This document shows, piece by piece, positions 27,254-42,045 of a stretch of 64,000 nt of DNA. Source of the stretch: Escherichia phage HermannAdler_Bas98; sequence record PQ850608.1; one strand, given 5' to 3'. A program made the translations under genes and the position numbers. The first letter of the stretch is position 1. The number at the start of each line of letters is the position of its first letter. The notes under the pieces are model-generated. The model was not told the origin of the DNA. It saw nothing but the letters and a program-made list of their open reading frames with translations, and did not search any database.

Positions 27254-28114
27254 TTAAAACTCTTCTGCGTCGGTCGGAGTTTCATTGACAGGACCAGCGG
27301 CACCGCTTGCTTCTTCCTGCTTGCTGCGGTCGATGTTGACGTTGCCGCCCACTACGTCATTGTGGAATGCCTTGGCGACTTCGTACAGACCTTTGTCCTG
27401 CACCAGACCTTCCAACTCAAACTTCAGAACGGACCAGGTGTTGCCGTCTTTGGACTGAGATGCAGTGCCCATGCGAACAATGTTCATAAAGGTCGGCGGC
27501 GTTTTCAGGCCCTGCGGAGTCTGAACTTTCTTCTGCTGCAGAGCGGTCATCAGCATGCGAGACGGCTTGATCATGGAAGAAGTCAGGGACAGCATTGCGC
27601 TACCAAATTCACCCGTTTCTTCGTTCAACAGAATCACGAAGTGGTTACGTGTATCTGCATAGTAAGGAGATTTCTTCTCGTGCACTTTGCCGTTTTCGTC
27701 CGGCACAAATACCTTACCGTTGATCTCAACAGCGCGGCCTGCCGCGACTTCTGCATCAACGTGCTCTTTGGTGAATTCACCTTTAAAGCCTTTATCGTCG
27801 GACTCGCGACCGCCCCAAAGGATGAAGGTGCGTTTGAATGCGCAAGGGATGATCTGCACGCCTTTCTTGCCGTCATACAACTCACCAGTGACGGTGTTGT
27901 ACAGCATGCCAGCTTTTGCGCCAGGAACGTGTTTAGGATCATCTTCGTCGACCATAGGTGACATCTTCTGCAGGACGACGATAAAAGGAATGGCATACGC
28001 ATCGGCATCGGCACCTTCAAAACCAGCGCCAAAATCGGTCATGTCGACAAAATCAGCCATAGCGGACATCTGGGTGTTTTTCACTGCAACTTCGGTGGTT
28101 TCTTTCTTAGACAT
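27254..28114 (-). CDS. putative ssDNA-binding protein (gp2.5-like)
   Basis: Acidic C-terminal tail ending ...ETPTDAEEF (terminal Phe as in T7 gp2.5-type SSBs); location in replication module. Confidence 0.3.
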   Translation of the reverse strand: MSKKETTEVAVKNTQMSAMADFVDMTDFGAGFEGADADAYAIPFIVVLQKMSPMVDEDDPKHVPGAKAGMLYNTVTGELYDGKKGVQIIPCAFKRTFILWGGRESDDKGFKGEFTKEHVDAEVAAGRAVEINGKVFVPDENGKVHEKKSPYYADTRNHFVILLNEETGEFGSAMLSLTSSMIKPSRMLMTALQQKKVQTPQGLKTPPTFMNIVRMGTASQSKDGNTWSVLKFELEGLVQDKGLYEVAKAFHNDVVGGNVNIDRSKQEEASGAAGPVNETPTDAEEF

Positions 28115-29065: not shown

Positions 29066-30589
29066 TTAATTCATCTTTTTGCCGTCGAGGATGTGATCAG
29101 CAAGCATAGATTTCATGCTCAGTGAACGCTGAATTTCTTCGTCGATGGTATCAACACCAATAAAATCAACATACAACACGCTTGATTTGGTGCCGATGCG
29201 GTGATTTCGGTCTTCGGATTGCTTGCGCAACTCGTTGTCATAGTTGCAAGAATAATAGATTGCCAAGTCAGCGGCGGTAAGCGTGATTCCGATGCCTGCC
29301 GCAGCTGCGTGACACACCAACACTTGCGTTCCACCGTTCTCGACTGTGTTTTTCTGGAAGTCATCAATCAAGAACTCGCGCTGCTCTTTTGATGTTTCAC
29401 CGTTGTACGCACCAGTGACCACGCCTTCAGACTCAAGCCAATCCTTAATCTGGTTCATCTCTTCCTTAAAGATGGCCCACACGATGAATTTGCGCTCTGG
29501 GTCGTCTTCCAGCACCCCTTCCACATAGTCCTTAAAGGCCGTGAATCGTGGGTTGTCTTCCATGTAGACCATCTCATCATACACCTTAACAAAGCCTGAT
29601 GTCACCTGCTTCATCTTGGTGCGAGATGCGATCATCTCAAACTTAACGTTTTCTTCTTCGCCTTTGTACTCCATCAAATAGTTGTACTCATTCTTGAGTT
29701 CATCGTAGACATCGCGCTGCTTAGGCGACAACTCGAAGTCGATAAACTTGTACACCTTCTCTGGAAGGTCCGGCAAGTATTCCGCTTTTGTCGCGCGGAA
29801 ATAGTGCGGCTCCATCAGCCGGATAAGCTTGTCAAGGTTTTTGTACATCGGTCGACCAAACTGGTCTTTGCGCGGCACTTGCGGAATGCCATAACCGTTG
29901 CCGCCGATTTTCTTGAGAATGGCCTGCATCTCTGGGTCGTGCGCTTCAAGTAGAACTGTGAATTCAGAGTTGAATGCACGGAACGATTTGGTGCCAAGCA
30001 AGCCAGCTTCAAGGAAGTGATATTGCATGTAAATATCAGCAGGCGAGCGTGGCAGCGGCGTACCAGAAAGGATTCGACGGGCCTTTGCCAGCCGTCCCAA
30101 TTCCACAACCTTGATGGAGCGTTTGGCTGTGTTATTTTTGATACGCGTCGATTCATCAATGATCATCAAACAGCGGTATTTCTTCAAGACCGACTCAATG
30201 TGTTGATAACCGACTGGTGTGTTGACGGTGTCAATGTTGAATGAGAAGATGCGCGCAGGCACTTCGCCTTCAGGGTAGTGATCAGCAAACATCTTCTCCC
30301 AAAGCGCCTTGCCCTTTTTAGTCTTCATCTTGTCATTGCCGCGCCAGTAATGCCCAATCCACTTGATGGAAAGGTGCTCTGGCGCTTCACGACGAATCCA
30401 GTTTGAGTGGACACCGTTTGGAGCAATAACAACCATGGCATCAAACGCGCCAGCAGTGAAGTGCTTTTCAAACTCTGCCAAAGCAGTCCAGGTTTTGCCA
30501 AGACCCTGCTCCATAAAATAAGCAAAGTATTTTCTGCGGCCTGCTTTATCAAGCGCCAATAATTGGTGGCGCATTCCTTGTGTTTTCAT
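29066..30589 (-). CDS. SNF2-family helicase
   Basis: GLGKTWTA Walker A, DESTRIKN DExx box, C-terminal helicase domain. Confidence 0.75.
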   Translation of the reverse strand: MKTQGMRHQLLALDKAGRRKYFAYFMEQGLGKTWTALAEFEKHFTAGAFDAMVVIAPNGVHSNWIRREAPEHLSIKWIGHYWRGNDKMKTKKGKALWEKMFADHYPEGEVPARIFSFNIDTVNTPVGYQHIESVLKKYRCLMIIDESTRIKNNTAKRSIKVVELGRLAKARRILSGTPLPRSPADIYMQYHFLEAGLLGTKSFRAFNSEFTVLLEAHDPEMQAILKKIGGNGYGIPQVPRKDQFGRPMYKNLDKLIRLMEPHYFRATKAEYLPDLPEKVYKFIDFELSPKQRDVYDELKNEYNYLMEYKGEEENVKFEMIASRTKMKQVTSGFVKVYDEMVYMEDNPRFTAFKDYVEGVLEDDPERKFIVWAIFKEEMNQIKDWLESEGVVTGAYNGETSKEQREFLIDDFQKNTVENGGTQVLVCHAAAAGIGITLTAADLAIYYSCNYDNELRKQSEDRNHRIGTKSSVLYVDFIGVDTIDEEIQRSLSMKSMLADHILDGKKMN

Positions 30590-34488: not shown

Positions 34489-35040
34489 TTATACAGTGTA
34501 CGGAGTACCTTCTTGATTCAAGCGCACGATAAACTTCAAATCAACGCCGATGATTTCACGCGTATCAAAGATCACATAGTTGTAACGACGTTGGCCAGCG
34601 ATGTTTGGGTTGGTGTGAGAATCAGTTACGACTTCCTGTGCAACCTGAATGCCTTCTTCGCTAAAGAACTTACGCCATTCAGCAAGTTCAGCAGCAGTCA
34701 CGTGCATACCAAGGTGGCTGACCTGATTATCGTGCGCATCGAGCATGTCGATGTTTTCATTAATCCAGTTGCAACCTTTTGTGTAGTCAAGGATTTCAAG
34801 CTCAAGAGGCTTACCAGCGCCGCCATCAGTACCGTTGCCAGCCTGATAGTTGAAGCGCAAGTCAGCTTCATTGGTGCAATCGCCGCGCTGACCTTTAAAG
34901 TCATCAGCTTCAAATACGCGACCAGTAGCAACAACGTGATCATGGAACCACTCTGTCAGGCCGATTTTAGCCAGGAAGTCCTGAGCGCGTTGAGCATCTG
35001 GAATGGACAGGGCGATTTGTTCAATTTTAAAATGTGGCAT
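34489..35040 (-). CDS. hypothetical protein, possibly glyoxalase/VOC-fold
   Basis: Two beta-alpha-beta-like halves with His-containing motifs (HDH, HLGMHV); weak. Confidence 0.3.
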   Translation of the reverse strand: MPHFKIEQIALSIPDAQRAQDFLAKIGLTEWFHDHVVATGRVFEADDFKGQRGDCTNEADLRFNYQAGNGTDGGAGKPLELEILDYTKGCNWINENIDMLDAHDNQVSHLGMHVTAAELAEWRKFFSEEGIQVAQEVVTDSHTNPNIAGQRRYNYVIFDTREIIGVDLKFIVRLNQEGTPYTV

Positions 35041-35060
35041 TTTGTTTCCTTAATTAAATA

Positions 35061-35276
35061 TTATTGATTAATTACTGTGTTGTCTTCGTCCTGTTTCTTT
35101 TCAGGAGCGGGTGTGACAACTTCAAATTTAGGTTTGGGTAATTCACCTTTAGCGCCTGGGACTTCAACGACAATCTTTTTGTCAGGCTCAACAGGATTTG
35201 GAACTTCAAATTTGATTGTGTATCCTAATACAACAAGAAGCACTAAACCGATTACCGCTACCCAGGCTTTGTTCAT
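35061..35276 (-). CDS. small membrane-anchored protein
   Basis: N-terminal anchor MNKAWVAVIGLVLLVVLGY followed by Pro/Lys-rich tail. Confidence 0.5.
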   Translation of the reverse strand: MNKAWVAVIGLVLLVVLGYTIKFEVPNPVEPDKKIVVEVPGAKGELPKPKFEVVTPAPEKKQDEDNTVINQ

Positions 35277-35278
35277 GG

Positions 35279-35446
35279 TTATTCGCCCTTATCTTTGCCT
35301 TCTATGGAATAAGTCTCAATGGAACCGACGCGCTCGTGGTTAACCTTTGCGTTTTCGATTCTTATTACTTCAAATCCAACGCCTTCTTGATCAATCTTCA
35401 CTTCTGCCACGTCGCCAATCACTTCTACAACAACTTTGATAGTCAT
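35279..35446 (-). CDS. small protein (55 aa)
   Basis: Short ORF below ORF-track cutoff, packed between neighbours. Confidence 0.3.
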   Translation of the reverse strand: MTIKVVVEVIGDVAEVKIDQEGVGFEVIRIENAKVNHERVGSIETYSIEGKDKGE

Positions 35447-35449
35447 GAT

Positions 35450-36133
35450 TTATTTCCCAAATGGAATATCAGTACCAGACATAAAGCGCCATGCGCCCGT
35501 AATTAAGATATGGCGAATGAAGTCAGCAATTACTTGCGGCTCAGTCTCCAATCCATTCATCAATGCCTTTTTCTGGTATTCAGCGGCGTATTCAGGAGTC
35601 CATCCGCGAGTCGCGCAAACAGCATCTTCAATCTGTTTAGACATACCAGTGCCGCGCAACTTGTTAGGACTAATAGAGAATACCGTGATGCCGTATTTAG
35701 GCGTAAGCTCGTGAGCCATCTGCTTGCTAATCATAAGCGCAGCAGCCTTGGATGCATTATAACACAAGCTGGACGTCATAGGAATATGCGCAGCGTTAGA
35801 AACGATATTGATCACAAAACCTTTGTTGTCGATAAGACTTTTCAGCGCGGCCTGAGTCGTGTTGACGAAAGAGAAGGCGTTGGTGTGCATAACGCGATTG
35901 AACTCTTCGTAGTTAACATCTTCGAACCAGTTGTTGGAGTTGACGCCAGCGCAGTTGATCAAGCCTTCTACATCATATGGGCTTAAAATTTCTTTCATCT
36001 GTTTAGCGTCGCGGACGTCATATCCGTATGCTGAATCGATTCCAAGCACGTTATGACCGTAAGCGCCAAGGGTGTCAAAAATAGATTTACCAAGACCGGA
36101 ATTGGAACCTGTTACAACAATTACTTTTTTCAT
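35450..36133 (-). CDS. short-chain dehydrogenase/reductase (SDR)
   Basis: TGSNSGLGKS (TGxxxGxG) and YNASK (YxxxK) motifs. Confidence 0.75.
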   Translation of the reverse strand: MKKVIVVTGSNSGLGKSIFDTLGAYGHNVLGIDSAYGYDVRDAKQMKEILSPYDVEGLINCAGVNSNNWFEDVNYEEFNRVMHTNAFSFVNTTQAALKSLIDNKGFVINIVSNAAHIPMTSSLCYNASKAAALMISKQMAHELTPKYGITVFSISPNKLRGTGMSKQIEDAVCATRGWTPEYAAEYQKKALMNGLETEPQVIADFIRHILITGAWRFMSGTDIPFGK

Positions 36134-36198
36134 TTATTTATCCTTTTTGGACTTCGTTTCGATGAGGTAAATATAACTCATCGAAACGCACAAGTAAA

Positions 36199-37074
36199 CT
36201 ATTTATTGAAATTAATATTATGGGTGTTAACAAGACGTTCACACATGGCGCTATAAACACCATCGTCGTGTATTGAGTCTTCGTGCTTCAGGCCGCTGAT
36301 TGCGAAGCGTGTAAGCTTGACAATCTTAAGCTCGAACAGATGCCACATGTGGTAGTCTTCCGGTGTCTTCAAAGTTACGCCATTAGGGAACAACACCTGC
36401 ATAACCTGACCTACCATCACAGCGTTATCGCCATAAACGGCATTGCGCTCACGGAAGGTCGCGGCCATCGCATCAAGAATATCAGCAGCGGTTGCTGGGG
36501 CTTGTTGTTCAACTTCAACAAGTTTAGTCTCTTCTTTCCCTGTTGCACTTGGATCAACTGCTAATTGTTGCACCACTTCACCTGCCTTGCAAAGATTAAA
36601 TGTAAAGGCGATTTTATTTTGCGCCATGGAATTATAGTGCAAAGCTTCTTCTTGCATCCGCGCGAGTACGTCTTGTCGGTCGTCGAATACATTGATGATT
36701 CGATAATCGCCGTGCCGCAAAGCGTGCGATAGCCATGCAGATTTCATAATAGTTGATGGACGTTTGTCGCCATAGTCTCTCATCTTGATTGTAAATTCAT
36801 CAAAAGGGAAAACATTGTCCAGACGTTCAAAAGTCACTTGTCTGTATTTTTCTGGCCTTGCAGTCCAATATTCAACCGCCTCACCGCGAAGAGATGCCGA
36901 CTCTACTGCTGATGCAATGTGAGGATAGAACTGATCATAACCAATACCGCTGTGATAGTCATCATAGTCTGACAACGGACCTGCCACCTTGATGCGGTCT
37001 AAGCGCCAACGGTCATCAAACAGCGTTCCGTCAAGGTCGAATACGTTTAAGATTTCGCTGTTTTTAATGCTCAT
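36199..37074 (-). CDS. HAD-superfamily hydrolase with C-terminal domain of unknown function
   Basis: N-terminal VFDLDGTLFDD (HAD motif I DxDGT); C-terminal ~130 aa unrecognised. Confidence 0.55.
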   Translation of the reverse strand: MSIKNSEILNVFDLDGTLFDDRWRLDRIKVAGPLSDYDDYHSGIGYDQFYPHIASAVESASLRGEAVEYWTARPEKYRQVTFERLDNVFPFDEFTIKMRDYGDKRPSTIMKSAWLSHALRHGDYRIINVFDDRQDVLARMQEEALHYNSMAQNKIAFTFNLCKAGEVVQQLAVDPSATGKEETKLVEVEQQAPATAADILDAMAATFRERNAVYGDNAVMVGQVMQVLFPNGVTLKTPEDYHMWHLFELKIVKLTRFAISGLKHEDSIHDDGVYSAMCERLVNTHNINFNK

Positions 37075-37880
37075 CCTTTTGATACTCCATCTTTAGCAAC
37101 TGGATTGTTGGTGATTGGCATTGCACTCCAAAACTGGATGCGCAACTCTTCTTGCTGTGCCGTGGTATCCATCCAATCACGATACCAAGGGCAATGGGCT
37201 TTGCCATGACGAGGAAACGCGCATTTACCCATACCGATGCATTGCGGCTGTAATAGTGGATTTGCCCACGGGTGCACCTTGAGGACTTCCGCAACCATTG
37301 CGCGGAATACTTCTTGATACTCGCCTTGGGTGCGCGTGCACAAGCGGTTTGACGCCATCTGCTGCAGCGTGCGCAAGTTGAACTTTGCCATGATATGCGT
37401 TTGCATATTAGAAGGCAACACGGCACGTGCATCTTGAATCTCTGCGCCAGCCGCGCGAAGCTCTTGGTATAGAGCGTCAATCGTGGCCATCGCATCATCC
37501 CACTTCTCTGCCAATGAGTGATTTCTTATGTGCACATCATCAAATGCATTTTCATCATTGCAGTCAAAAGGGTGCTCGAATGCCTTCGGACGAATCGCAT
37601 CAAATGCAGACGACTCCTGAGCGCGGCTGGTGCGTTCTTGATATGCGCCTGTGCGTGTGCGTACCATCTGATGGGTCATGTTCTTTGATACAGCTGTGAT
37701 ATCAAAGATATAGTCCACAAAGTCAAAAGGAGACCTGATTGTATCAAGCATGTAGCGCCAGTGCTCTTGCTTCTCTGATTCTGTCATCTCAGAGACTGGC
37801 TTACCAGTCATGCGCGTGTTCTTTGTTTCCAGCAAAAGGTCAAGTGCATCTTGGGTGTATCGAATTAATTCAACTTTCAT
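37071..37880 (-). CDS. thyX: ThyX-like flavin-dependent thymidylate synthase homologue (divergent)
   Basis: ThyX-like blocks but signature reads RTR-X8-S (MVRTRTGAYQERTSR) instead of RHR; VLPSNMQT...NLRTLQQM block; Cys-rich C-terminal extension. Confidence 0.5.
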   Translation of the reverse strand: MKVELIRYTQDALDLLLETKNTRMTGKPVSEMTESEKQEHWRYMLDTIRSPFDFVDYIFDITAVSKNMTHQMVRTRTGAYQERTSRAQESSAFDAIRPKAFEHPFDCNDENAFDDVHIRNHSLAEKWDDAMATIDALYQELRAAGAEIQDARAVLPSNMQTHIMAKFNLRTLQQMASNRLCTRTQGEYQEVFRAMVAEVLKVHPWANPLLQPQCIGMGKCAFPRHGKAHCPWYRDWMDTTAQQEELRIQFWSAMPITNNPVAKDGVSKG

Positions 37881-37893
37881 TTTAATTATCCTA

Positions 37894-38340
37894 TTAACGG
37901 TAATTCACTAGTTGCTGATCACCAGAGAAGGTGCAATGATAAACGAATTGTGCGTTATAAAGCAACTGAAAACTTTTCTTTGGTTCATTATTAGAACTCA
38001 TTGATGTAAAGATTTCTGCACCAGAACGGTTTTCACCAATCAGGTTAATAAAGTCGCCAGTTGAACGAGGCTGAACGAAAGTGAAACGCTGCATCCACGG
38101 AGTCCGGTTGGCACCTTTTCCGGTGAATCCCTGAATCTGAATATTCAGACCTTCTTGCTCGTTCACACCGATGTAAGTGGTAATTGTTGCGCCAGTCGTC
38201 GCTGCAGTCTTGCCGTCCATCGCTTCGCAATCGTAAACAGCGATTGAATCGGAAGTACGGACAGCGGCTTCAGTCGCTTCCATATACATGGTTCCGAGAA
38301 TAGCAGTTGCGGCAAGCGCGATTCCAGTGATGCGTTTCAT
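37894..38340 (-). CDS. secreted protein of unknown function
   Basis: Signal peptide MKRITGIALAATAILGTMYMEA; two Cys in mature part. Confidence 0.5.
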   Translation of the reverse strand: MKRITGIALAATAILGTMYMEATEAAVRTSDSIAVYDCEAMDGKTAATTGATITTYIGVNEQEGLNIQIQGFTGKGANRTPWMQRFTFVQPRSTGDFINLIGENRSGAEIFTSMSSNNEPKKSFQLLYNAQFVYHCTFSGDQQLVNYR

Positions 38341-38405
38341 TTTCGTTTCCTCTATGAGTTCTGCTTCAATGATTAAAGTATACGCCCATTGAAGCAGAAA
38401 GCAAA

Positions 38406-39401
38406 TTATTTATTAGCAATATAAGCAAATTTTTGATAGTTATTTGCTTTGATGAGTTTTTCAACTTCAGCAAGGTCATGAGCGACGTCATCAAGCAAAA
38501 TGTTTCGCCAAGTAGCGAATCGACCGACACTAAATACGTTCAAATCCATGGTCAGTTGCAGGAGTAGAGCGTGTCGCAAGTCTTTCGGAATGTCGACAAT
38601 CTTGCCATACTTCTGGTCGACCTTTTCAACTTCTTCGAGAGCGATGTCACTCCATGATAGGCCAAAGGCTGTCAATACTTCGTCAACTTCTGCACGCAAC
38701 TTAATGTCACGGTAACGAGTAATGCCGCCAGCGGCTTCAACTGCGGCTTCACTTACGCTAACCAAAGGAATTGTTTCGATGATCAGCGTGTCACCAGTGA
38801 TTGATGCGCGGTAAGTTCTGACGGAGTAGTCAGGGAAGTAAATTGTCTGATACAACTCACACTTACGTTTAATCTTAAAGCGGTAAACACGAATGTTTGC
38901 TTTATCAAATGAAAAATCAAGCTTTTGATCAATCCCAGCCAGCTTCATCATAACTGGCAGCGGCGACGTGTTGATGATTGGCGTCTCGCTATAGCCGCAA
39001 AGAGTATCAACAGGAGTATTAAAGAATATGCGGTCGCCCAGTTTGTCGACAAGCTGATCATAAAAGTCATCAGGCGCAATATAACGCGTTGCAGTTTTAA
39101 GCTTCATGATTGAACGGCTGCCAAACTGATTGGTGACCTTCATGGAATACATATTGGCAAGGTTGATTGGACAATGGTCGTGGTAGTAGTTGCCGCGAAA
39201 ATACACAGCCTTGTCAACTGTCACGGCCTTAAAAGGGATTCCGGTAATACGGCTTACTTCTTCGCCGCGAAAGCGTAGCAGTGCCTTGTGCTGTGGCGCT
39301 CGCTCCCCTGCTTCGTACACAATAGAGTTCGGGAAGTGACACGCGGTGATAAGTCCTGCCAAACCGCCGCCGATAATCATTACAGGTTGTTTCATGTTCA
39401 T
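38406..39401 (-). CDS. FAD/NAD(P)-binding oxidoreductase
   Basis: N-terminal VMIIGGGLAGL dinucleotide-binding motif. Confidence 0.45.
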   Translation of the reverse strand: MNMKQPVMIIGGGLAGLITACHFPNSIVYEAGERAPQHKALLRFRGEEVSRITGIPFKAVTVDKAVYFRGNYYHDHCPINLANMYSMKVTNQFGSRSIMKLKTATRYIAPDDFYDQLVDKLGDRIFFNTPVDTLCGYSETPIINTSPLPVMMKLAGIDQKLDFSFDKANIRVYRFKIKRKCELYQTIYFPDYSVRTYRASITGDTLIIETIPLVSVSEAAVEAAGGITRYRDIKLRAEVDEVLTAFGLSWSDIALEEVEKVDQKYGKIVDIPKDLRHALLLQLTMDLNVFSVGRFATWRNILLDDVAHDLAEVEKLIKANNYQKFAYIANK

Positions 39402-39535
39402 TTGTCCTTTGTGGGTGATATGAGAAGTATAATAGCTAAATTATTTTACAGCAACAAGTCATTTCTATTTAGTACAGACGAAAAAAGACCCACAACAAGT
39501 GTGGGTCAATTACCGCTATATAACCGTCCTACAGG

Positions 39536-40381
39536 TTATTCCGCTTGATCACCGTCTTCGGCATCGTCGTTGGATTCAACATCGACAAACTCGATGTGGC
39601 CCATCTCTTCCAGCTTGCTCAGGTAGGAGCGAACGGAAGCGCCAAACAGCTGATCTTTAACTTTCTCGCCCAGCTCATCGATAGACTGCGCCACGCCAAC
39701 TTCGCCTTCTTTGATCGCCGCCAGAACGCGCCCACGGGTGGAGTGCTCCTGCGGCTGGCTCAGGCCGTTGCCAGTGTAGATGAAGTGAGTAGCTTTTGCA
39801 CGGCGCTGACCGTTTGCCTTTTTGGCAGCCTTGCGCTCTGCGATGGCTTTGCGACGTTCTTCAGCTTCTTTCTTACGCTGTTCTTTTTGCTGTTCTGCAG
39901 CTTCTTTCGCCGCGATCTTAGCAGCTTCACGCTCTGCCTTGCGTTTCGCTTTCGCTTCTTCTTTAGCCTTCTCTTTTTCGGCCTTTGCTGCAGCACGGGC
40001 TTGATCACGCTCTGCTTTCTTAGCAGCAGCTTGTTCAGCTTTCAGGCGCTTGGCTTCTTCTTTGGCCTTTGCCTTTTCGATTTCTTTTGCTGCTTTAGCG
40101 GCTTCACGCTCTGCTTTCTTAGCAGCAGCCTTTTCTGCACGCTCTTTAGCTTTCTTAGCTGCTTCTTCAGCACGCTTCTGAGCCTTCTCATCAGCAGCCT
40201 GTTTGCGCTTCAGCGCGGCTTCTTCACGCTTGGCTTGTTTTTCCTGCTCACGCTTCTGGCGTTTTTCTTCGGCTTCTTTCTTTTTAGCCAGGCGTTTTTC
40301 TTCAGCCACGCGACGACGTTCTGCTGCGGCTGCTTGTTTTTCTTCTTTAGATAATACTTTGATTGCTTCGGCCATATTCAC
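39536..40381 (-). CDS. charged low-complexity (K/E/A repeat, TolA-like) protein with C-terminal globular domain
   Basis: About 190 aa of AEEKRQKREQEKQAKR / AKKAEREAAKAAKE repeats; DNA repeats such as CACGCTCTGCTTTCTTAGCAGCAGC occur twice. Confidence 0.6.
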   Translation of the reverse strand: MNMAEAIKVLSKEEKQAAAAERRRVAEEKRLAKKKEAEEKRQKREQEKQAKREEAALKRKQAADEKAQKRAEEAAKKAKERAEKAAAKKAEREAAKAAKEIEKAKAKEEAKRLKAEQAAAKKAERDQARAAAKAEKEKAKEEAKAKRKAEREAAKIAAKEAAEQQKEQRKKEAEERRKAIAERKAAKKANGQRRAKATHFIYTGNGLSQPQEHSTRGRVLAAIKEGEVGVAQSIDELGEKVKDQLFGASVRSYLSKLEEMGHIEFVDVESNDDAEDGDQAE

Positions 40382-40534
40382 AGTCCTTAAATAAATTAGT
40401 TTATTTTATATTCCCCGTTTGGGATAACTTAATTATGCCTTCAGTCGCCGCCAGTAGCAACTAAAAACTATGGCGGCAATGCCACTTTAATTAAACTGAT
40501 TTTCAGTTTTATTTTTCGTAAATTTACGTCAACA

Positions 40535-41719
40535 TTAACGCGCTTTCAAATCACGGTACACGGTCAGATTCTTCTTAGCACGGGTGATAGCGGTGTACAT
40601 CATCTTGGAGTACGGAACGCCGCGCAGGATTTCTTCCAGCACGCACACATTGTCCCACTCGCTGCCTTGCGATTTGTGCACCGTGATGACATAGCCATAG
40701 TCCATGCCTCCAACAGCGCGTTGCGCTTCTTTGCGCACTTCCTGATCAGTAGAGAAGGAAAGAGGATTGATCTTCACCTTTATATCTTTACCATCAGTTA
40801 ATGAACGTAAGTTGACATACATTATTTCATTCGACTCATCTTCATCCCTTTCGAAGTCCGGCACTGGCTCATAGCTAATAACAATCCCTTGCTCGCCATT
40901 ACAGAATCCTGGCCCGTGTTGGTTGAAGGTGCAAATAACCTTCTCACCGATTCCTGGCATTGGCGTTATACGTCCGCTCACTTGCCGTAATAATGAATTC
41001 CATTTATCTTTTGTGCTATTATAGGAGCAAATAATTTGATCATCTTCGCCCATGAATTTCTTCAATGCAGTAACGCGCGGCGATTCTGCCAATACTTTGA
41101 CGTCATCGTATTCACGCGGAGGAAGGCGGTTGCCTTGGCGCACGAAGAAGGAGGCGCGGATTATATTGGACTCTTTCCCTTGCCGCATGATTTCTGTTAA
41201 CAGTACGTCAACGGCATCTTCAGTAAAGTAGGCGGCGGCTTTTACCGGAGGGACTTGTCCAATGTCGCCTAATGCCAGGACAGGGATGCGGTGATCAAGA
41301 AGGCGCTCTGTGTCCCACTCGCCAACCATCGACGCTTCATCGAGTACAACAAGATGCGGCCTTTCATCCAGCTTTGACTTTCTCGAAAAGATTGGCTCAT
41401 TGTCGTCATTTACGCCGCGCACGTTATAGATGAACTGGTGAAGGGTCTTAGCGCCACGACAGCCTTTTTGCTTTAATCGGCTTGCAGCCTTTCCGGTCGG
41501 CGCAATATAGATAGCTCCATACTCACCGACACAACGGCGCACAATCTCGCGAGCAATAGAGGTTTTACCAGTCCCTGCATAGCCAGCAATGAAAAACACG
41601 CGCTTCGTCGTTTTACCGTCCTGCAATCGCTTGTACCATGCAACGGCTTTCTCGATGGCGTCGATTTGTTGCGCGTTAAACTGAATCACTGGCTCATCAT
41701 TAAATTCTGGAATGTTCAT
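40535..41719 (-). CDS. Dda/RecD-like SF1 DNA helicase
   Basis: AGYAGTGKTS Walker A, VVLDEASMV Walker B, VITVHKSQGSEWD and YTAITRAKKNL motifs. Confidence 0.75.
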   Translation of the reverse strand: MNIPEFNDEPVIQFNAQQIDAIEKAVAWYKRLQDGKTTKRVFFIAGYAGTGKTSIAREIVRRCVGEYGAIYIAPTGKAASRLKQKGCRGAKTLHQFIYNVRGVNDDNEPIFSRKSKLDERPHLVVLDEASMVGEWDTERLLDHRIPVLALGDIGQVPPVKAAAYFTEDAVDVLLTEIMRQGKESNIIRASFFVRQGNRLPPREYDDVKVLAESPRVTALKKFMGEDDQIICSYNSTKDKWNSLLRQVSGRITPMPGIGEKVICTFNQHGPGFCNGEQGIVISYEPVPDFERDEDESNEIMYVNLRSLTDGKDIKVKINPLSFSTDQEVRKEAQRAVGGMDYGYVITVHKSQGSEWDNVCVLEEILRGVPYSKMMYTAITRAKKNLTVYRDLKAR

Positions 41720-42045
41720 TATAACTCCACTACGCTGTCAAGGTCCAGATATACTGGAATAAAATGGCAATCTTCTTTTCGTTCAAACATCTCACCATCA
41801 ACATGGCTGAAGAAAACAGTTGTGTTTGGTATCTTCCATCCTTTCTCGTCGCGCACTAAGTACGCCATGGATTCAACAGGGATGTACAGCGATACCGGAT
41901 TTGCGGCAAAAATAAATTTGATTCTGTCTGGTTGACCCAGAAATCGCATGATTGTTAGGCTTGAATTCAATCTTGTATTAAGGAAGGACTCAACGATTCC
42001 GACGTGTGTTGCACGTTCGCGTTGCTTCGTCTCTTTTTCGTTCAT
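41719..42045 (-). CDS. hypothetical protein
   Basis: First gene of leftward operon; ATG overlaps downstream gene. Confidence 0.5.
   Translation of the reverse strand: MNEKETKQRERATHVGIVESFLNTRLNSSLTIMRFLGQPDRIKFIFAANPVSLYIPVESMAYLVRDEKGWKIPNTTVFFSHVDGEMFERKEDCHFIPVYLDLDSVVEL

What the first reader, a model, noticed from the sequence alone, without database searches (positions are those of the whole stretch)
39536..40381. TolA-like charged repeat protein in the replication operon
About 190 residues of K/E/A/R heptad-like repeats (long single alpha-helix or coiled coil) are followed by a ~90 aa globular domain and an acidic tail. The DNA carries near-identical 25 bp internal repeats, so the gene is prone to length variation. 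The function is not obvious; it could be a spacer, a nucleoid-associated protein or an envelope-spanning protein.
Basis: seen in the sequence. Interest (0 to 1): 0.45.

Follow-up and report, generated by a model that had tools for sequence, protein, structure and literature searches.

The report
Abundant charged-helix winged-helix phage protein
A real and very highly expressed gene of a Wifcevirus coliphage encodes a ~27 nm charged single helix joined to a winged-helix domain and an acidic tail; it is not TolA, it most likely coats or organises DNA and travels with virions, and its function has never been tested.

Summary
The ORF is real: minus strand, 39536-40375, ATG start, 279 aa, 31.1 kDa. 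Six Wifcevirus genomes differ at 79 sites, 70 of them at third codon positions, and all keep 279 aa. Residues 10-186 are one predicted uninterrupted helix (A/K/E/R, net about +25). Residues 187-265 form a divergent winged-helix (WH) domain. Residues 266-279 are an acidic tail.

Three details are wrong. The periodicity is 11/3 (hendecad), not heptad: K/R lie on one helical face and E/D on the opposite face. Length does not vary within a genus. The gene is its own promoter-to-terminator unit, conserved in seven genera, always just after the Dda-like helicase.

"TolA" is a composition artefact. The protein has no membrane anchor, no TolA C-domain and no significant similarity to E. coli TolA.

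The protein has the strongest codon bias of 67 ORFs in the window, above the major head protein. A published study detected it by mass spectrometry in CsCl-purified virions of two Wifcevirus phages.

Best reading (about 0.45): an abundant, non-specific DNA-associated architectural protein. It is analogous, not homologous, to the KER helix + WHD + acidic region of CAF-1. Its function is untested, and the family is small and phage-restricted.

The parts
40432..40460 (-). sigma-70-type promoter-like site TTGCTA-17 nt-CATAAT, about 57 nt upstream of the ATG
   Evidence: Consensus scan. A TTGCxx-17-xATAAT site lies at the equivalent place in the 110-170-nt gap after the Dda-like helicase in Serratia MTx, Pantoea PA1, Aeromonas Gekk3-15, BcepF1 and XcP1. 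The MTx site was found by the scan. The others were read by eye from the sequences printed. No transcription start site was mapped.
40470..40485 (-). terminator-like hairpin after the Dda-like helicase gene, just upstream of the promoter
   Evidence: Consensus scan. It is weak: 5-bp stem.
40384..40388 (-). Shine-Dalgarno AAGGA, 8 nt before the ATG
   Evidence: Read from the sequence. A ribosome-binding site is annotated at the same place in phage Mansfield.
39536..40375 (-). coding sequence: 279 aa plus stop, 31.1 kDa, pI 9.6
   Evidence: PHROG 4765, E = 2.4e-84. Published MS detection of the orthologues vB_Eco4M-7_83 and ECML-117 gp81.
39818..40348 (-). residues 10-186: one long A/K/E/R helix (about 26.6 nm) with a K/R stripe on hendecad positions 1, 4, 8, 11 and E/D on the opposite face
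   Evidence: AlphaFold2. Periodicity and register analyses.
40104..40129 (-). copy 1 of the exact 26-nt direct repeat (the 5'-proximal copy in the mRNA)
   Evidence: It is part of a 33-codon duplication.
40005..40030 (-). copy 2 of the exact 26-nt direct repeat, 99 nt from copy 1
   Evidence: The two copies differ by 1-3 nt in Bas100 and Bas99.
39581..39817 (-). residues 187-265: basic arm (GQRRAKATH) plus a divergent winged-helix-like domain (b197-200, H213-222, b229-231, H232-238, H248-257, b261-264)
39539..39580 (-). residues 266-279: disordered acidic tail (net -6)
   Evidence: Tail length is 0-47 residues across the family.
39477..39507 (-). intrinsic terminator GACCCACACTTGTTGTGGGTC followed by a T-run, about 30 nt after the stop codon
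   Evidence: Scan. A GC hairpin plus T-run follows the orthologue in all seven genera examined.

Best explanation
The gene encodes an abundant protein specific to the PB1-like phage lineage. Its three modules are best explained as a non-sequence-specific, DNA-associated architectural protein.

The modules are:
(i) a helix of about 177 residues and about 27 nm. It carries lysine/arginine along one face and glutamate/aspartate along the opposite face.
(ii) a short basic arm and a divergent winged-helix domain. Its family-invariant residues sit on the arm, at the start of helix 1 and on helix 3.
(iii) a disordered acidic tail.

Proposed mechanism (inferred): the basic stripe and the winged-helix domain together hold the protein on duplex DNA. 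The acidic face and tail keep the complex soluble. They may also fold back to moderate binding, as the acidic ED region does for the winged-helix domain of CAF-1.

The protein would be made in large amounts from its own host-type promoter. It would load on phage DNA in the replication compartment, where the neighbouring Dda-like helicase and the phage's SNF2-type translocase could clear it ahead of forks. Part of it would remain with the DNA in virions.

Shown: the gene is real, strongly constrained and independently flanked by promoter-like and terminator sites. It has capsid-level codon bias. The protein is present in CsCl-purified phage. The helix, winged-helix domain and tail are predicted with good confidence.

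Inferred: DNA binding, the role of the tail, and true packaging inside the capsid.
For: Fold and family
- R214, R249 and K254 are invariant in both architectures of the family, with and without the charged helix. The arm residues R191 and R192 are invariant only among charged-helix homologues.

Helix
- It is continuous over residues 10-186.
- K/R periodicity of 3.67 has power 3.68 against a 95% null of 1.82.
- 43 of 65 K/R sit on 4 of the 11 register positions. E/D lie about 180 degrees away.
- K-K pairs are enriched at spacings 7, 11 and 18.
- The same periodicity is significant (p<=0.02) in 24 of the 30 family sequences that could be tested. It is absent from E. coli TolA domain II (p=0.99).
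- Net helix charge is about +25 and pI 10.05.

Precedent
- The CAF-1 KER helix binds DNA through basic residues biased to one face. It cooperates with a WHD that is restrained by an acidic ED region. A myosin-7a single helix does not bind DNA (PMC10335832).

Context
- The gene lies immediately after the Dda-like helicase in Wifcevirus, Pbunavirus, Bcepfunavirus, Myosmarvirus, Carpasinavirus, Gekk3-15 and a 64.6-kb metagenomic phage.
- The phage also has an SNF2-family ATPase.

Abundance
- It has its own promoter-like site and terminator in seven genera.
- Fop is 0.73, the highest of 67 ORFs. The major head protein is 0.71, the tail sheath 0.63 and the median 0.51.

Virion association
- vB_Eco4M-7_83 gave 7 peptides, 25.8% coverage and a score of 1197.6 in CsCl-purified phage. 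ECML-117 gp81 gave 2 peptides (PMC7048862).
- The protein has exactly 7 tryptic peptides of 7 or more residues.
- The 'putative structural protein' label on LMA2 ORF66 follows the labelling pattern of the virion genes in that record.

Constraint
- 16-23 nucleotide differences in the helix region produce only 0-1 amino-acid changes.
Against: - No DNA-binding test exists or could be run here.
- The winged-helix domain itself is near neutral (pI 6.3, net -2). Winged helices also serve as protein-binding modules (RPA32C, PBP2 and kleisin all appear).
- Structural matches are generic. Foldseek against the PDB gives a best E of 0.3.
- In most homologues the helix is only mildly basic (+2 to +15). 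In three it is zero or negative, so electrostatic DNA coating cannot be the whole story across the family.
- A helix with opposite-charged faces could equally drive self-assembly.
- The same MS data set also lists plainly non-structural proteins (helicase, SDR, glyoxalase-like, endolysin). Co-purification therefore does not prove packaging.
- Two cryo-EM papers on Pbunavirus virions do not mention the protein.
- Fop rests on an optimal-codon list recalled from memory and is dominated by four amino acids.
Confidence: 0.45

Rival explanations
1. Replisome adaptor or spacer. The winged-helix domain binds a protein partner (Dda-like helicase, polymerase or primase). The acidic tail works like the partner-recruiting tail of SSB-type proteins. 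The rigid helix sets a fixed distance. DNA binding is absent or incidental.
For: - The gene is adjacent to the Dda-like helicase in every genus examined.
- Helix length is fixed within genera, as expected of a ruler.
- The WH domain is near neutral.
- No SSB is annotated in the carefully annotated relative Bas100, in the region examined.
Against: - Capsid-level codon bias and a private promoter and terminator point to stoichiometric amounts far above those of replisome enzymes. Dda has Fop 0.50 against 0.73.
- The conserved K/R stripe has no role in this model.
- The acidic tail is missing in some homologues, and none ends in the aromatic residue typical of SSB or gp2.5 tails (the SSB feature is from general knowledge).
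- In the variant architecture the WH domain is kept without a Dda neighbour being evident.
Confidence: 0.15
2. Genuine virion component whose main job is in the particle or at entry. It would be an internal head or ejected protein, whether or not it binds DNA.
For: - MS detection in CsCl-purified virions of two Wifcevirus phages, with a score comparable to the portal protein.
- 'Structural protein' labels in Pbunavirus, XcP1 and tabernarius records.
- Codon bias groups it with the head, decoration and sheath proteins.
- Internal proteins are invisible to symmetric cryo-EM (general knowledge).
Against: - The gene lies in the replication/nucleotide cluster, about 30 kb from the morphogenesis genes, on the opposite strand.
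- The same MS lists contain soluble enzymes.
- The cryo-EM and LC-MS papers on E217 and Pa193 do not mention it in the text that could be read.
- There are no membrane-active or peptidoglycan-degrading features.
Confidence: 0.15
3. Self-assembling scaffold. Helices with a basic face and an acidic face stack laterally into sheets or bundles. These would organise a replication or assembly zone, with the WH domain as cargo binder.
For: - K/R and E/D faces are about 180 degrees apart in all seven phage homologues analysed.
- The 11/3 periodicity gives straight, unsupercoiled stripes suited to lateral packing (inference).
- Abundance is high.
- Several homologues have near-zero net helix charge.
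Against: - Opposite-charge pairs are enriched at i+3 to i+6. There is no hydrophobic seam. Both are the signature of a soluble single helix.
- AlphaFold2 models a straight monomeric helix with high confidence, although a monomer run cannot show assembly.
- There is no precedent in phages that I could find.
Confidence: 0.1
4. RNA- or ribosome-associated factor that helps take over translation.
For: - Lys/Glu-rich helices occur in ribosome-associated proteins (general knowledge).
- Wifcevirus phages have a very short latent period.
Against: - The matches are not significant: Foldseek E is at least 0.3 and TM-score about 0.46-0.5.
- The genomic context is DNA metabolism.
- No RNA-binding family was matched.
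Confidence: 0.04
5. TolA-like envelope-spanning protein, as several GenBank records annotate it.
For: Ala/Lys/Glu-rich helical composition like TolA domain II. 'TolA protein' labels appear in ECML-117, FEC19, vB_Eco4M-7 and some Pbunavirus records.
Against: - No transmembrane or signal segment: maximum KD19 is 0.61, against 2.45 in TolA.
- No PF06519 domain, with a positive control on real TolA at 2e-38.
- BLASTP E = 0.17.
- No NCBIfam family, TolA included, matched at E<=0.1.
- No tolQ or tolR genes nearby.
- The charge periodicity differs.
Confidence: 0.01

Closest known systems
Pbunavirus ORF66 family (LMA2 ORF66, 14-1 gp67, PB1 gp69, BcepF1 gp72, MTx gp078, XcP1_051; PHROG 4765)
   Same: True orthologues. 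They share the helix + RRxKATH arm + winged helix + acidic tail. They occupy the same position after the Dda-like helicase and are followed by the same kind of terminator. The C-domain is 37-60% identical.
   Different: Helix length runs from about 130 to about 220 residues, and 40-260 in metagenomic members. Tail length is 0-47 residues. The Wifcevirus helix is the most basic of the family (+25 against +2 to +15). Many relatives carry a His-rich N-terminus that is absent here. None has a tested function.
CAF-1 large subunit (yeast Cac1): KER single-alpha-helix DNA-binding domain + acidic ED region + C-terminal winged-helix domain
   Same: The same three kinds of module. Both have a K/E/R-rich single helix with basic residues biased to one face and a net positive charge. 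The CAF-1 KER helix was shown to bind DNA and to act as a length sensor or spacer. The WHD binds DNA, and the acidic region restrains the WHD (PMC10335832).
   Different: There is no sequence homology. The module order differs: here helix-WH-acidic, in Cac1 KER-ED-WHD. The phage helix is about twice as long (177 residues against about 90) and richer in alanine. Cac1 works in a three-subunit histone chaperone with PCNA, and there are no histones here. The resemblance is functional analogy only.
E. coli TolA (Tol-Pal system), domain II
   Same: A long Ala/Lys/Glu-rich helical region. This is the source of the database label.
   Different: TolA has an N-terminal membrane anchor and a C-terminal PF06519 domain, and is encoded with tolQ and tolR. 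The phage protein has none of these. TolA domain II shows no 3.67-residue K/R periodicity.
Classical ER/K single alpha-helices (myosin 7a/10 type)
   Same: High E/K/R content, no hydrophobic seam, and enrichment of opposite charges three to six residues apart.
   Different: Classical single helices are roughly charge-balanced around the helix, and myosin 7a does not bind DNA. Here charges are sorted onto opposite faces with an 11/3 register, alanine makes up 30%, and the net charge is strongly positive.
Linker histone H1/H5
   Same: A winged-helix globular domain joined to a long, lysine- and alanine-rich, abundant, non-specific DNA-binding extension (general knowledge).
   Different: No match to the linker-histone Pfam family. 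Yeast H1 globular domain II appears only at Foldseek E = 3.2. The H1 tail is disordered, proline-rich and lacks acidic residues. Here the extension is N-terminal, helical and 20% glutamate.

Membership tests
TolA (Tol-Pal) | N-terminal transmembrane anchor | tested here: not met
   The maximum 19-residue Kyte-Doolittle mean is 0.61, found inside the WH domain. E. coli TolA reaches 2.45 at residue 14.
TolA (Tol-Pal) | C-terminal TolA domain (Pfam PF06519) | tested here: not met
   No Pfam hit at E<=1. E. coli TolA as a positive control matches at 2e-38. No NCBIfam hit at E<=0.1; the three hits between 0.21 and 0.63 are unrelated families.
TolA (Tol-Pal) | Significant sequence similarity to TolA beyond composition | tested here: not met
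   BLASTP with compositional adjustment gives a best E of 0.17, confined to the charged helix.
TolA (Tol-Pal) | Encoded with tolQ and tolR | tested here: not met
   The neighbours are the Dda-like helicase, a RepB-type primase, ThyX and a HAD_PNKP-like protein.
Winged-helix fold superfamily | Three-helix bundle with beta strands packing as a small sheet (H1-S1-H2-H3-S2 topology) | tested here: met
Winged-helix fold superfamily | Nucleic-acid binding through helix 3 and flanking basic residues | not testable with these tools
   There is only indirect support. R214, R249 and K254 are invariant in both architectures, and the arm residues R191 and R192 are invariant in the charged-helix architecture.
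Canonical coiled coil | Heptad (3.5-residue) periodicity with a hydrophobic a/d seam | tested here: not met
   No significant peak for hydrophobic residues plus Ala. K/R power at period 3.5 is 0.23. There are 11 large hydrophobic residues in about 190. No dedicated coiled-coil predictor was available.
Single alpha-helix (ER/K) domains | Long helix rich in E/K/R with stabilising opposite charges at i+3/i+4 and no hydrophobic core | tested here: met
   Opposite-charge i+3/i+4 pairs have z=+2.4 and like-charge pairs z=-2.6. AlphaFold2 gives a single helix over residues 10-186.
Single alpha-helix (ER/K) domains | Monomeric and helical in solution | not testable with these tools
   This needs CD plus SEC-MALS or analytical ultracentrifugation.
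DNA-binding SAH of the CAF-1 KER type (functional class, not a homology family) | Basic residues biased to one helical face, with net positive charge | tested here: met
   43 of 65 K/R sit on register positions 1, 4, 8 and 11. The resultant vector is 0.40, opposite the E/D face. Net helix charge is about +25.
DNA-binding SAH of the CAF-1 KER type (functional class, not a homology family) | Binds duplex DNA | not testable with these tools
   An EMSA is required.
Linker histone H1/H5 | Globular domain matching the linker-histone family | tested here: not met
   No Pfam match. The H1 globular domain appears only at Foldseek E = 3.2.
SSB-type proteins with acidic tails | OB-fold DNA-binding core | tested here: not met
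   The predicted fold is a helix plus a winged helix, with no beta-barrel.
PHROG 4765 / Pbunavirus ORF66 family | Full-length profile match and conserved synteny | tested here: met
   E = 2.4e-84 over residues 1-279. Synteny is shown.

The most novel reading that the evidence does not exclude
The protein is a phage 'chromatin' component. It would be a DNA-coating protein that uses a basic-faced single alpha-helix as a DNA-binding module, the first such module outside eukaryotic CAF-1. It would be packaged with the genome and injected with it. It would shield the incoming and replicating DNA from restriction enzymes and other nucleases. [quoted passage not shown] The phage's Dda-like and SNF2-type translocases would act as its removers.
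Probability: 0.1. Interest if true: 0.8.

Novelty: new variant of a known kind. Interest (0 to 1): 0.45.

Why it matters
PB1-like phages (Pbunavirus) are among the Pseudomonas phages most used in therapy. Wifcevirus phages are notable for very fast growth and unexplained resistance to restriction. This gene is conserved across all seven genera examined. It appears to be expressed at capsid-protein level and is found in purified virions. Yet databases label it 'TolA', 'structural protein' or 'hypothetical'.

Three things would follow if it is a DNA-coating protein built on a basic-faced single helix plus a winged helix. A widespread mis-annotation would be corrected. A second, independent example of the helix-type DNA-binding module known only from CAF-1 would exist. 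There would also be a concrete candidate for how these phages organise or protect their DNA. All of this is directly testable, because the BASEL isolates Bas98-101 grow on E. coli K-12 derivatives.

Tried and rejected
Searches that found no characterised relative
- Pfam, NCBIfam and PDB-sequence searches with the full protein and with a profile of the C-domain found nothing.
- Foldseek against the PDB had no hit below E = 0.3. BFVD returned only family members. The afdb50 library was unavailable.
- The word-indexed protein search returned only 1 and then 10 mostly partial homologues. The exhaustive HMMER search found just 42 cluster representatives.

Analyses that gave nothing
- Tandem Repeats Finder found no array.

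Hypotheses rejected
- TolA membership was tested directly and rejected.
- A canonical coiled coil was rejected on periodicity and hydrophobic content.
- Repeat-number variation was looked for in six Wifcevirus and three Pbunavirus genomes and not found.
- The 269-aa ORF on the opposite strand (39545-40354) is a shadow ORF. It shows 23-41 amino-acid changes between relatives and a stop codon in phage Mansfield.
- The high-Fop 183-aa neighbour (34489-35040) was checked as a possible hidden SSB. It is glyoxalase/VOC-like instead.

Literature
- No functional study of the protein was found. I searched the Pbunavirus comparative and JG024 papers, the E217 and Pa193 cryo-EM papers, ONT-cappable-seq of phage 14-1, the transposon and CRISPRi phage screens, the 2026 Pbunavirus preprint and the Banzai paper.
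- The paper that most likely reported the Pbunavirus virion proteome (Ceyssens 2009, Environ Microbiol) is not held.
- Supplementary MS and TSS tables of Pa193 and 14-1 are not held.
Full report
WHERE WE ARE. The window is a Wifcevirus-type E. coli myophage. The 1.3 kb around the finding matches 28 phage records at 95.2-99.8% identity, among them AV128, WFC, WFH, ECML-117, FEC19, vB_Eco4M-7 and BASEL Bas99-101. In the annotated relative Bas100 the gene sits in a leftward cluster. Reading in the direction of transcription, the order is: two small ORFs, a Dda-like helicase, this gene, a 330-aa protein, a 148-aa protein, ThyX, a PNKP-like protein, a FabG-like protein, a hypothetical protein, the polymerase exonuclease subunit, the polymerase, and 'helicases'.

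THE OBSERVATION. The ORF is on the minus strand. The ORF lister starts it at GTG 40381. The ATG at 40375 is the better start, for three reasons:
- It has an AAGGA Shine-Dalgarno at 40384-40388.
- It is the start used in Bas99, Bas100 and Mansfield.
- It gives 279 aa and 31.1 kDa, exactly the mass listed for the orthologue in a published proteome.

The composition is as described: residues 1-190 are A 30%, K 24%, E 20.5% and R 10.5%. Net charge is +28 for residues 1-195 and -11 for the rest.

The DNA repeat is real but modest. There is one exact 26-nt pair at 40005 and 40104, 99 nt (33 codons) apart. No permutation reached that length: 0 of 300 synonymous-codon shuffles and 0 of 300 codon-order shuffles, with a maximum of 20 nt. 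The pair lies inside an 89-nt duplication at 74% identity. There is no tandem array.

The gene is clearly coding. Six Wifcevirus copies are all 840 nt. They differ at 79 sites, 70 of them third codon positions, and show 0-5 amino-acid changes. The 'low-complexity' helix region takes 16-23 nucleotide changes but only 0-1 amino-acid change. The 269-aa ORF on the other strand is a shadow: it shows 23-41 amino-acid changes and a stop codon in one relative.

First, the periodicity is not heptad.
- K/R show a 3.65-3.70-residue period (power 3.68 against a 95% null of 1.82), and almost nothing at 3.5.
- In an 11-residue register, positions 1, 4, 8 and 11 hold 43 of the 65 K/R and only 2 of the 40 E/D. 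E/D sit at positions 3, 6, 9 and 10. The two mean directions are 308 and 130 degrees.
- K-K pairs are enriched at spacings 7, 11 and 18. K-E pairs are enriched at spacings 3-6.
- Only 11 large hydrophobic residues occur in about 190.

Second, length does not vary among close relatives.
- All six Wifcevirus copies examined are identical in length.
- All 28 megablast matches span 1298-1302 nt.
- In Pbunavirus (LMA2, 14-1, PB1) the 294-297-aa range comes from the annotated N-terminus and one residue of the acidic tail, not from the helix.
- Between genera the length does differ: 221-326 aa in isolates, and a helix of about 40-260 residues in metagenomic members.

Third, the gene is not simply part of an operon.
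- It lies between a promoter-like site (TTGCTA-17-CATAAT, 40460-40432) and a strong intrinsic terminator (39507-39487 plus T-run).
- A GC hairpin plus T-run follows the orthologue in all seven genera examined.
- A TTGCxx-17-xATAAT site occupies the 110-170-nt gap after the helicase in most of them. This comes from record annotations, scans and reading the sequences.

STRUCTURE. AlphaFold2 on the full protein, with 10 homologues, gives the following (mean pLDDT 85.2):
- one uninterrupted helix over residues 10-186, mostly above pLDDT 90, about 26.6 nm long and equivalent to roughly 78 bp of B-DNA;
- then b197-200, H213-222, b229-231, H232-238, H248-257 and b261-264;
- a disordered tail from residue 268.

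THE FAMILY. It is small and phage-restricted.
- tblastn with the C-domain finds 356 phage records. Of these 293 are Pseudomonas phages, essentially PB1-like; the rest include Serratia, Burkholderia, Xanthomonas, Pantoea and Aeromonas phages.
- An exhaustive profile search of 1.84 billion representatives finds 42.
- There is no Pfam, NCBIfam or PDB-sequence relative.
- PHROG 4765, 'unknown function', matches end to end.

Two architectures exist. One is the charged helix + RRxKATH arm + WH + acidic tail. The other, rarer one has a different N-terminal globular domain before the same WH domain. In high-GC viral contigs the second type sits at the same syntenic place. There it lies directly upstream of the homologue of the 331-aa protein, ThyX, the HAD protein, the SDR and the VOC-like protein. 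R214, R249 and K254 are invariant across both types. The arm residues R191 and R192 are invariant among the charged-helix type.

The K/R 3.65-3.7 periodicity is significant (p<=0.02) in 24 of the 30 family sequences testable. The K/R and E/D faces are roughly opposite in all seven phage homologues analysed. E. coli TolA domain II, used as a control, has no such periodicity (p = 0.99).

NOT TolA. Several records call the protein TolA. Real TolA has a membrane anchor (KD19 2.45) and PF06519 (2e-38). The phage protein has neither (KD19 maximum 0.61, no Pfam hit). BLASTP against TolA gives E = 0.17 within the low-complexity region only.

ABUNDANCE AND VIRION ASSOCIATION. I used a list of E. coli preferred codons recalled from general knowledge. 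On that list the gene has the highest fraction of preferred codons of all 67 non-overlapping ORFs of at least 100 aa in the window. The values are 0.73 for this gene, 0.71 for the major head protein, 0.68 for a virion structural protein annotated in the head-and-packaging category, 0.63 for the tail sheath, and 0.51 for the median. All 25 Arg codons are CGT or CGC.

Necel et al. (PMC7048862) analysed CsCl-purified vB_Eco4M-7 and ECML-117 by LC-MS/MS. They list the 'TolA protein' of 31.1 kDa with 7 peptides, 25.8% coverage and a score of 1197.6 in vB_Eco4M-7, and with 2 peptides in ECML-117. The protein has exactly 7 tryptic peptides of 7 or more residues, so detection was close to the maximum possible.

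The same lists include a helicase, an SDR, a glyoxalase-like protein and an endolysin. Co-purification of abundant soluble proteins therefore cannot be excluded. In the LMA2 record the product name 'putative structural protein' is given to a discontinuous subset of morphogenesis genes and, outside that module in the regions I examined, to ORF66. That pattern suggests an MS-based label, but the source paper is not held.

MECHANISM. The best-supported reading is an abundant, non-specific DNA-associated architectural protein.
- The basic-faced helix has an experimentally characterised analogue in the KER helix of CAF-1. KER binds DNA through basic residues biased to one face. It cooperates with a C-terminal winged-helix domain and is accompanied by an acidic region that restrains that domain. 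A charge-balanced myosin helix does not bind DNA (PMC10335832). The phage protein has all three module types, without homology.
- The context fits. The gene always follows a Dda-like helicase. The phage's 507-aa 'helicase' is an SNF2-family ATPase. A recent paper likens its Pbunavirus orthologue to Ino80/CHD1L remodelers. Both enzyme classes are known to move or remove DNA-bound proteins (general knowledge), but many phages have them, so this is weak support.

Against this reading:
- The WH domain is near neutral.
- The helix is only mildly basic in most homologues, and zero or negative in three.
- Winged helices often bind proteins.
- Nothing here tests DNA binding.

I give this reading 0.45. 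The rivals are:
- a replisome adaptor or spacer, 0.15;
- a virion or entry protein, 0.15, which partly overlaps the best reading;
- a self-assembling scaffold built from the two-faced helix, 0.10;
- a ribosome- or RNA-binding factor, 0.04;
- TolA-like, 0.01.

NOVELTY AND INTEREST. The sequence family is known and mislabelled. The protein has been seen by MS, and no function has been tested. As a kind it is a variant of winged-helix DNA-associated proteins, with an unusual, conserved, two-faced single helix whose only characterised analogue is eukaryotic.

The most novel reading not excluded is a packaged DNA-coating protein that protects the genome. [quoted passage not shown] I put that reading at about 0.1. 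The adjacent FAD/ThyX/HAD/SDR/VOC block is a competing candidate for that phenotype.

Noticed in passing
window 34489-39401 (minus strand): There is a conserved enzyme block just downstream of the target. It comprises:
- a 331-aa Rossmann/FAD-like protein (38406-39401), called UDP-galactopyranose mutase by HHpred in the Mansfield record, with no Pfam or PDB-sequence hit here;
- a 148-aa protein with a signal-peptide-like N-terminus (37894-38340);
- ThyX (37071-37880);
- a HAD_PNKP phosphatase domain with an unknown C-domain (36199-37074);
- an SDR/FabG-like protein (35450-36133);
- a weak glyoxalase/VOC-like protein (34489-35040).
The same block follows the variant winged-helix protein in high-GC viral contig L016. 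It could be a nucleotide or DNA-modification pathway. It is an alternative candidate for the unexplained restriction insensitivity of Wifcevirus.
   Followed up: partly
window 29066-30589 (minus strand): The gene annotated 'DNA helicase' next to the polymerase is an SNF2-family ATPase (PF00176 at 1.8e-21, plus Helicase_C). A 2025 paper likens the Pbunavirus orthologue to the Ino80/CHD1L chromatin remodelers.
   Followed up: partly
window 34489-35040 (minus strand): The 183-aa glyoxalase/VOC-like protein has unusually strong codon bias (Fop 0.66, fifth of 67 ORFs). Its orthologue was found in CsCl-purified vB_Eco4M-7 with 8 peptides and 49.7% coverage. That is odd for an enzyme.
   Followed up: no
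window 27254-28114 (minus strand): A 286-aa protein of unknown function (PHROG 2402; Pfam Pam3_Gp34, 4e-86) ranks third in codon bias (Fop 0.70), between the major head protein (0.71) and a virion structural protein in the PHROG head-and-packaging category (0.68).
   Followed up: no
homologues P0013, P0014, P0016, P0021, P0023, P0025 and Gekk3-15 (L004 3470-4360): Many homologues of the target begin with short histidine-rich peptides (MSHTHHHD, MSHGHHNHG...HSHN, MHKHHNHDHN, MNQHAHEKHEHHD). The Wifcevirus and Pantoea proteins lack them. Their purpose is unknown.
   Followed up: no
L016 5463-5954 and 5926-6630: In high-GC viral contigs the winged-helix domain is fused to a different N-terminal domain with the motif ADLVATYNALTGKxxKKFENRxIAERRV. 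The same N-domain recurs in the adjacent ORF, fused to another C-terminal domain. It matches no Pfam family.
   Followed up: partly
window 39545-40354 (plus strand): A 269-aa ORF runs antisense to the target. It is a shadow of the low-complexity coding strand: it shows 23-41 amino-acid changes among close relatives and a stop codon in phage Mansfield.
   Followed up: yes
Pbunavirus gene upstream of the Dda-like helicase (not in the window; the window position by gene order is 41719-42045): The Banzai paper reports an anti-defence gene (DadIII-1) overlapping, on the opposite strand, the gene upstream of the Dda-like helicase in Pbunavirus. I did not check whether the 108-aa ORF that occupies that position in the window is homologous, or whether the window has a comparable antisense ORF.
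   Followed up: no
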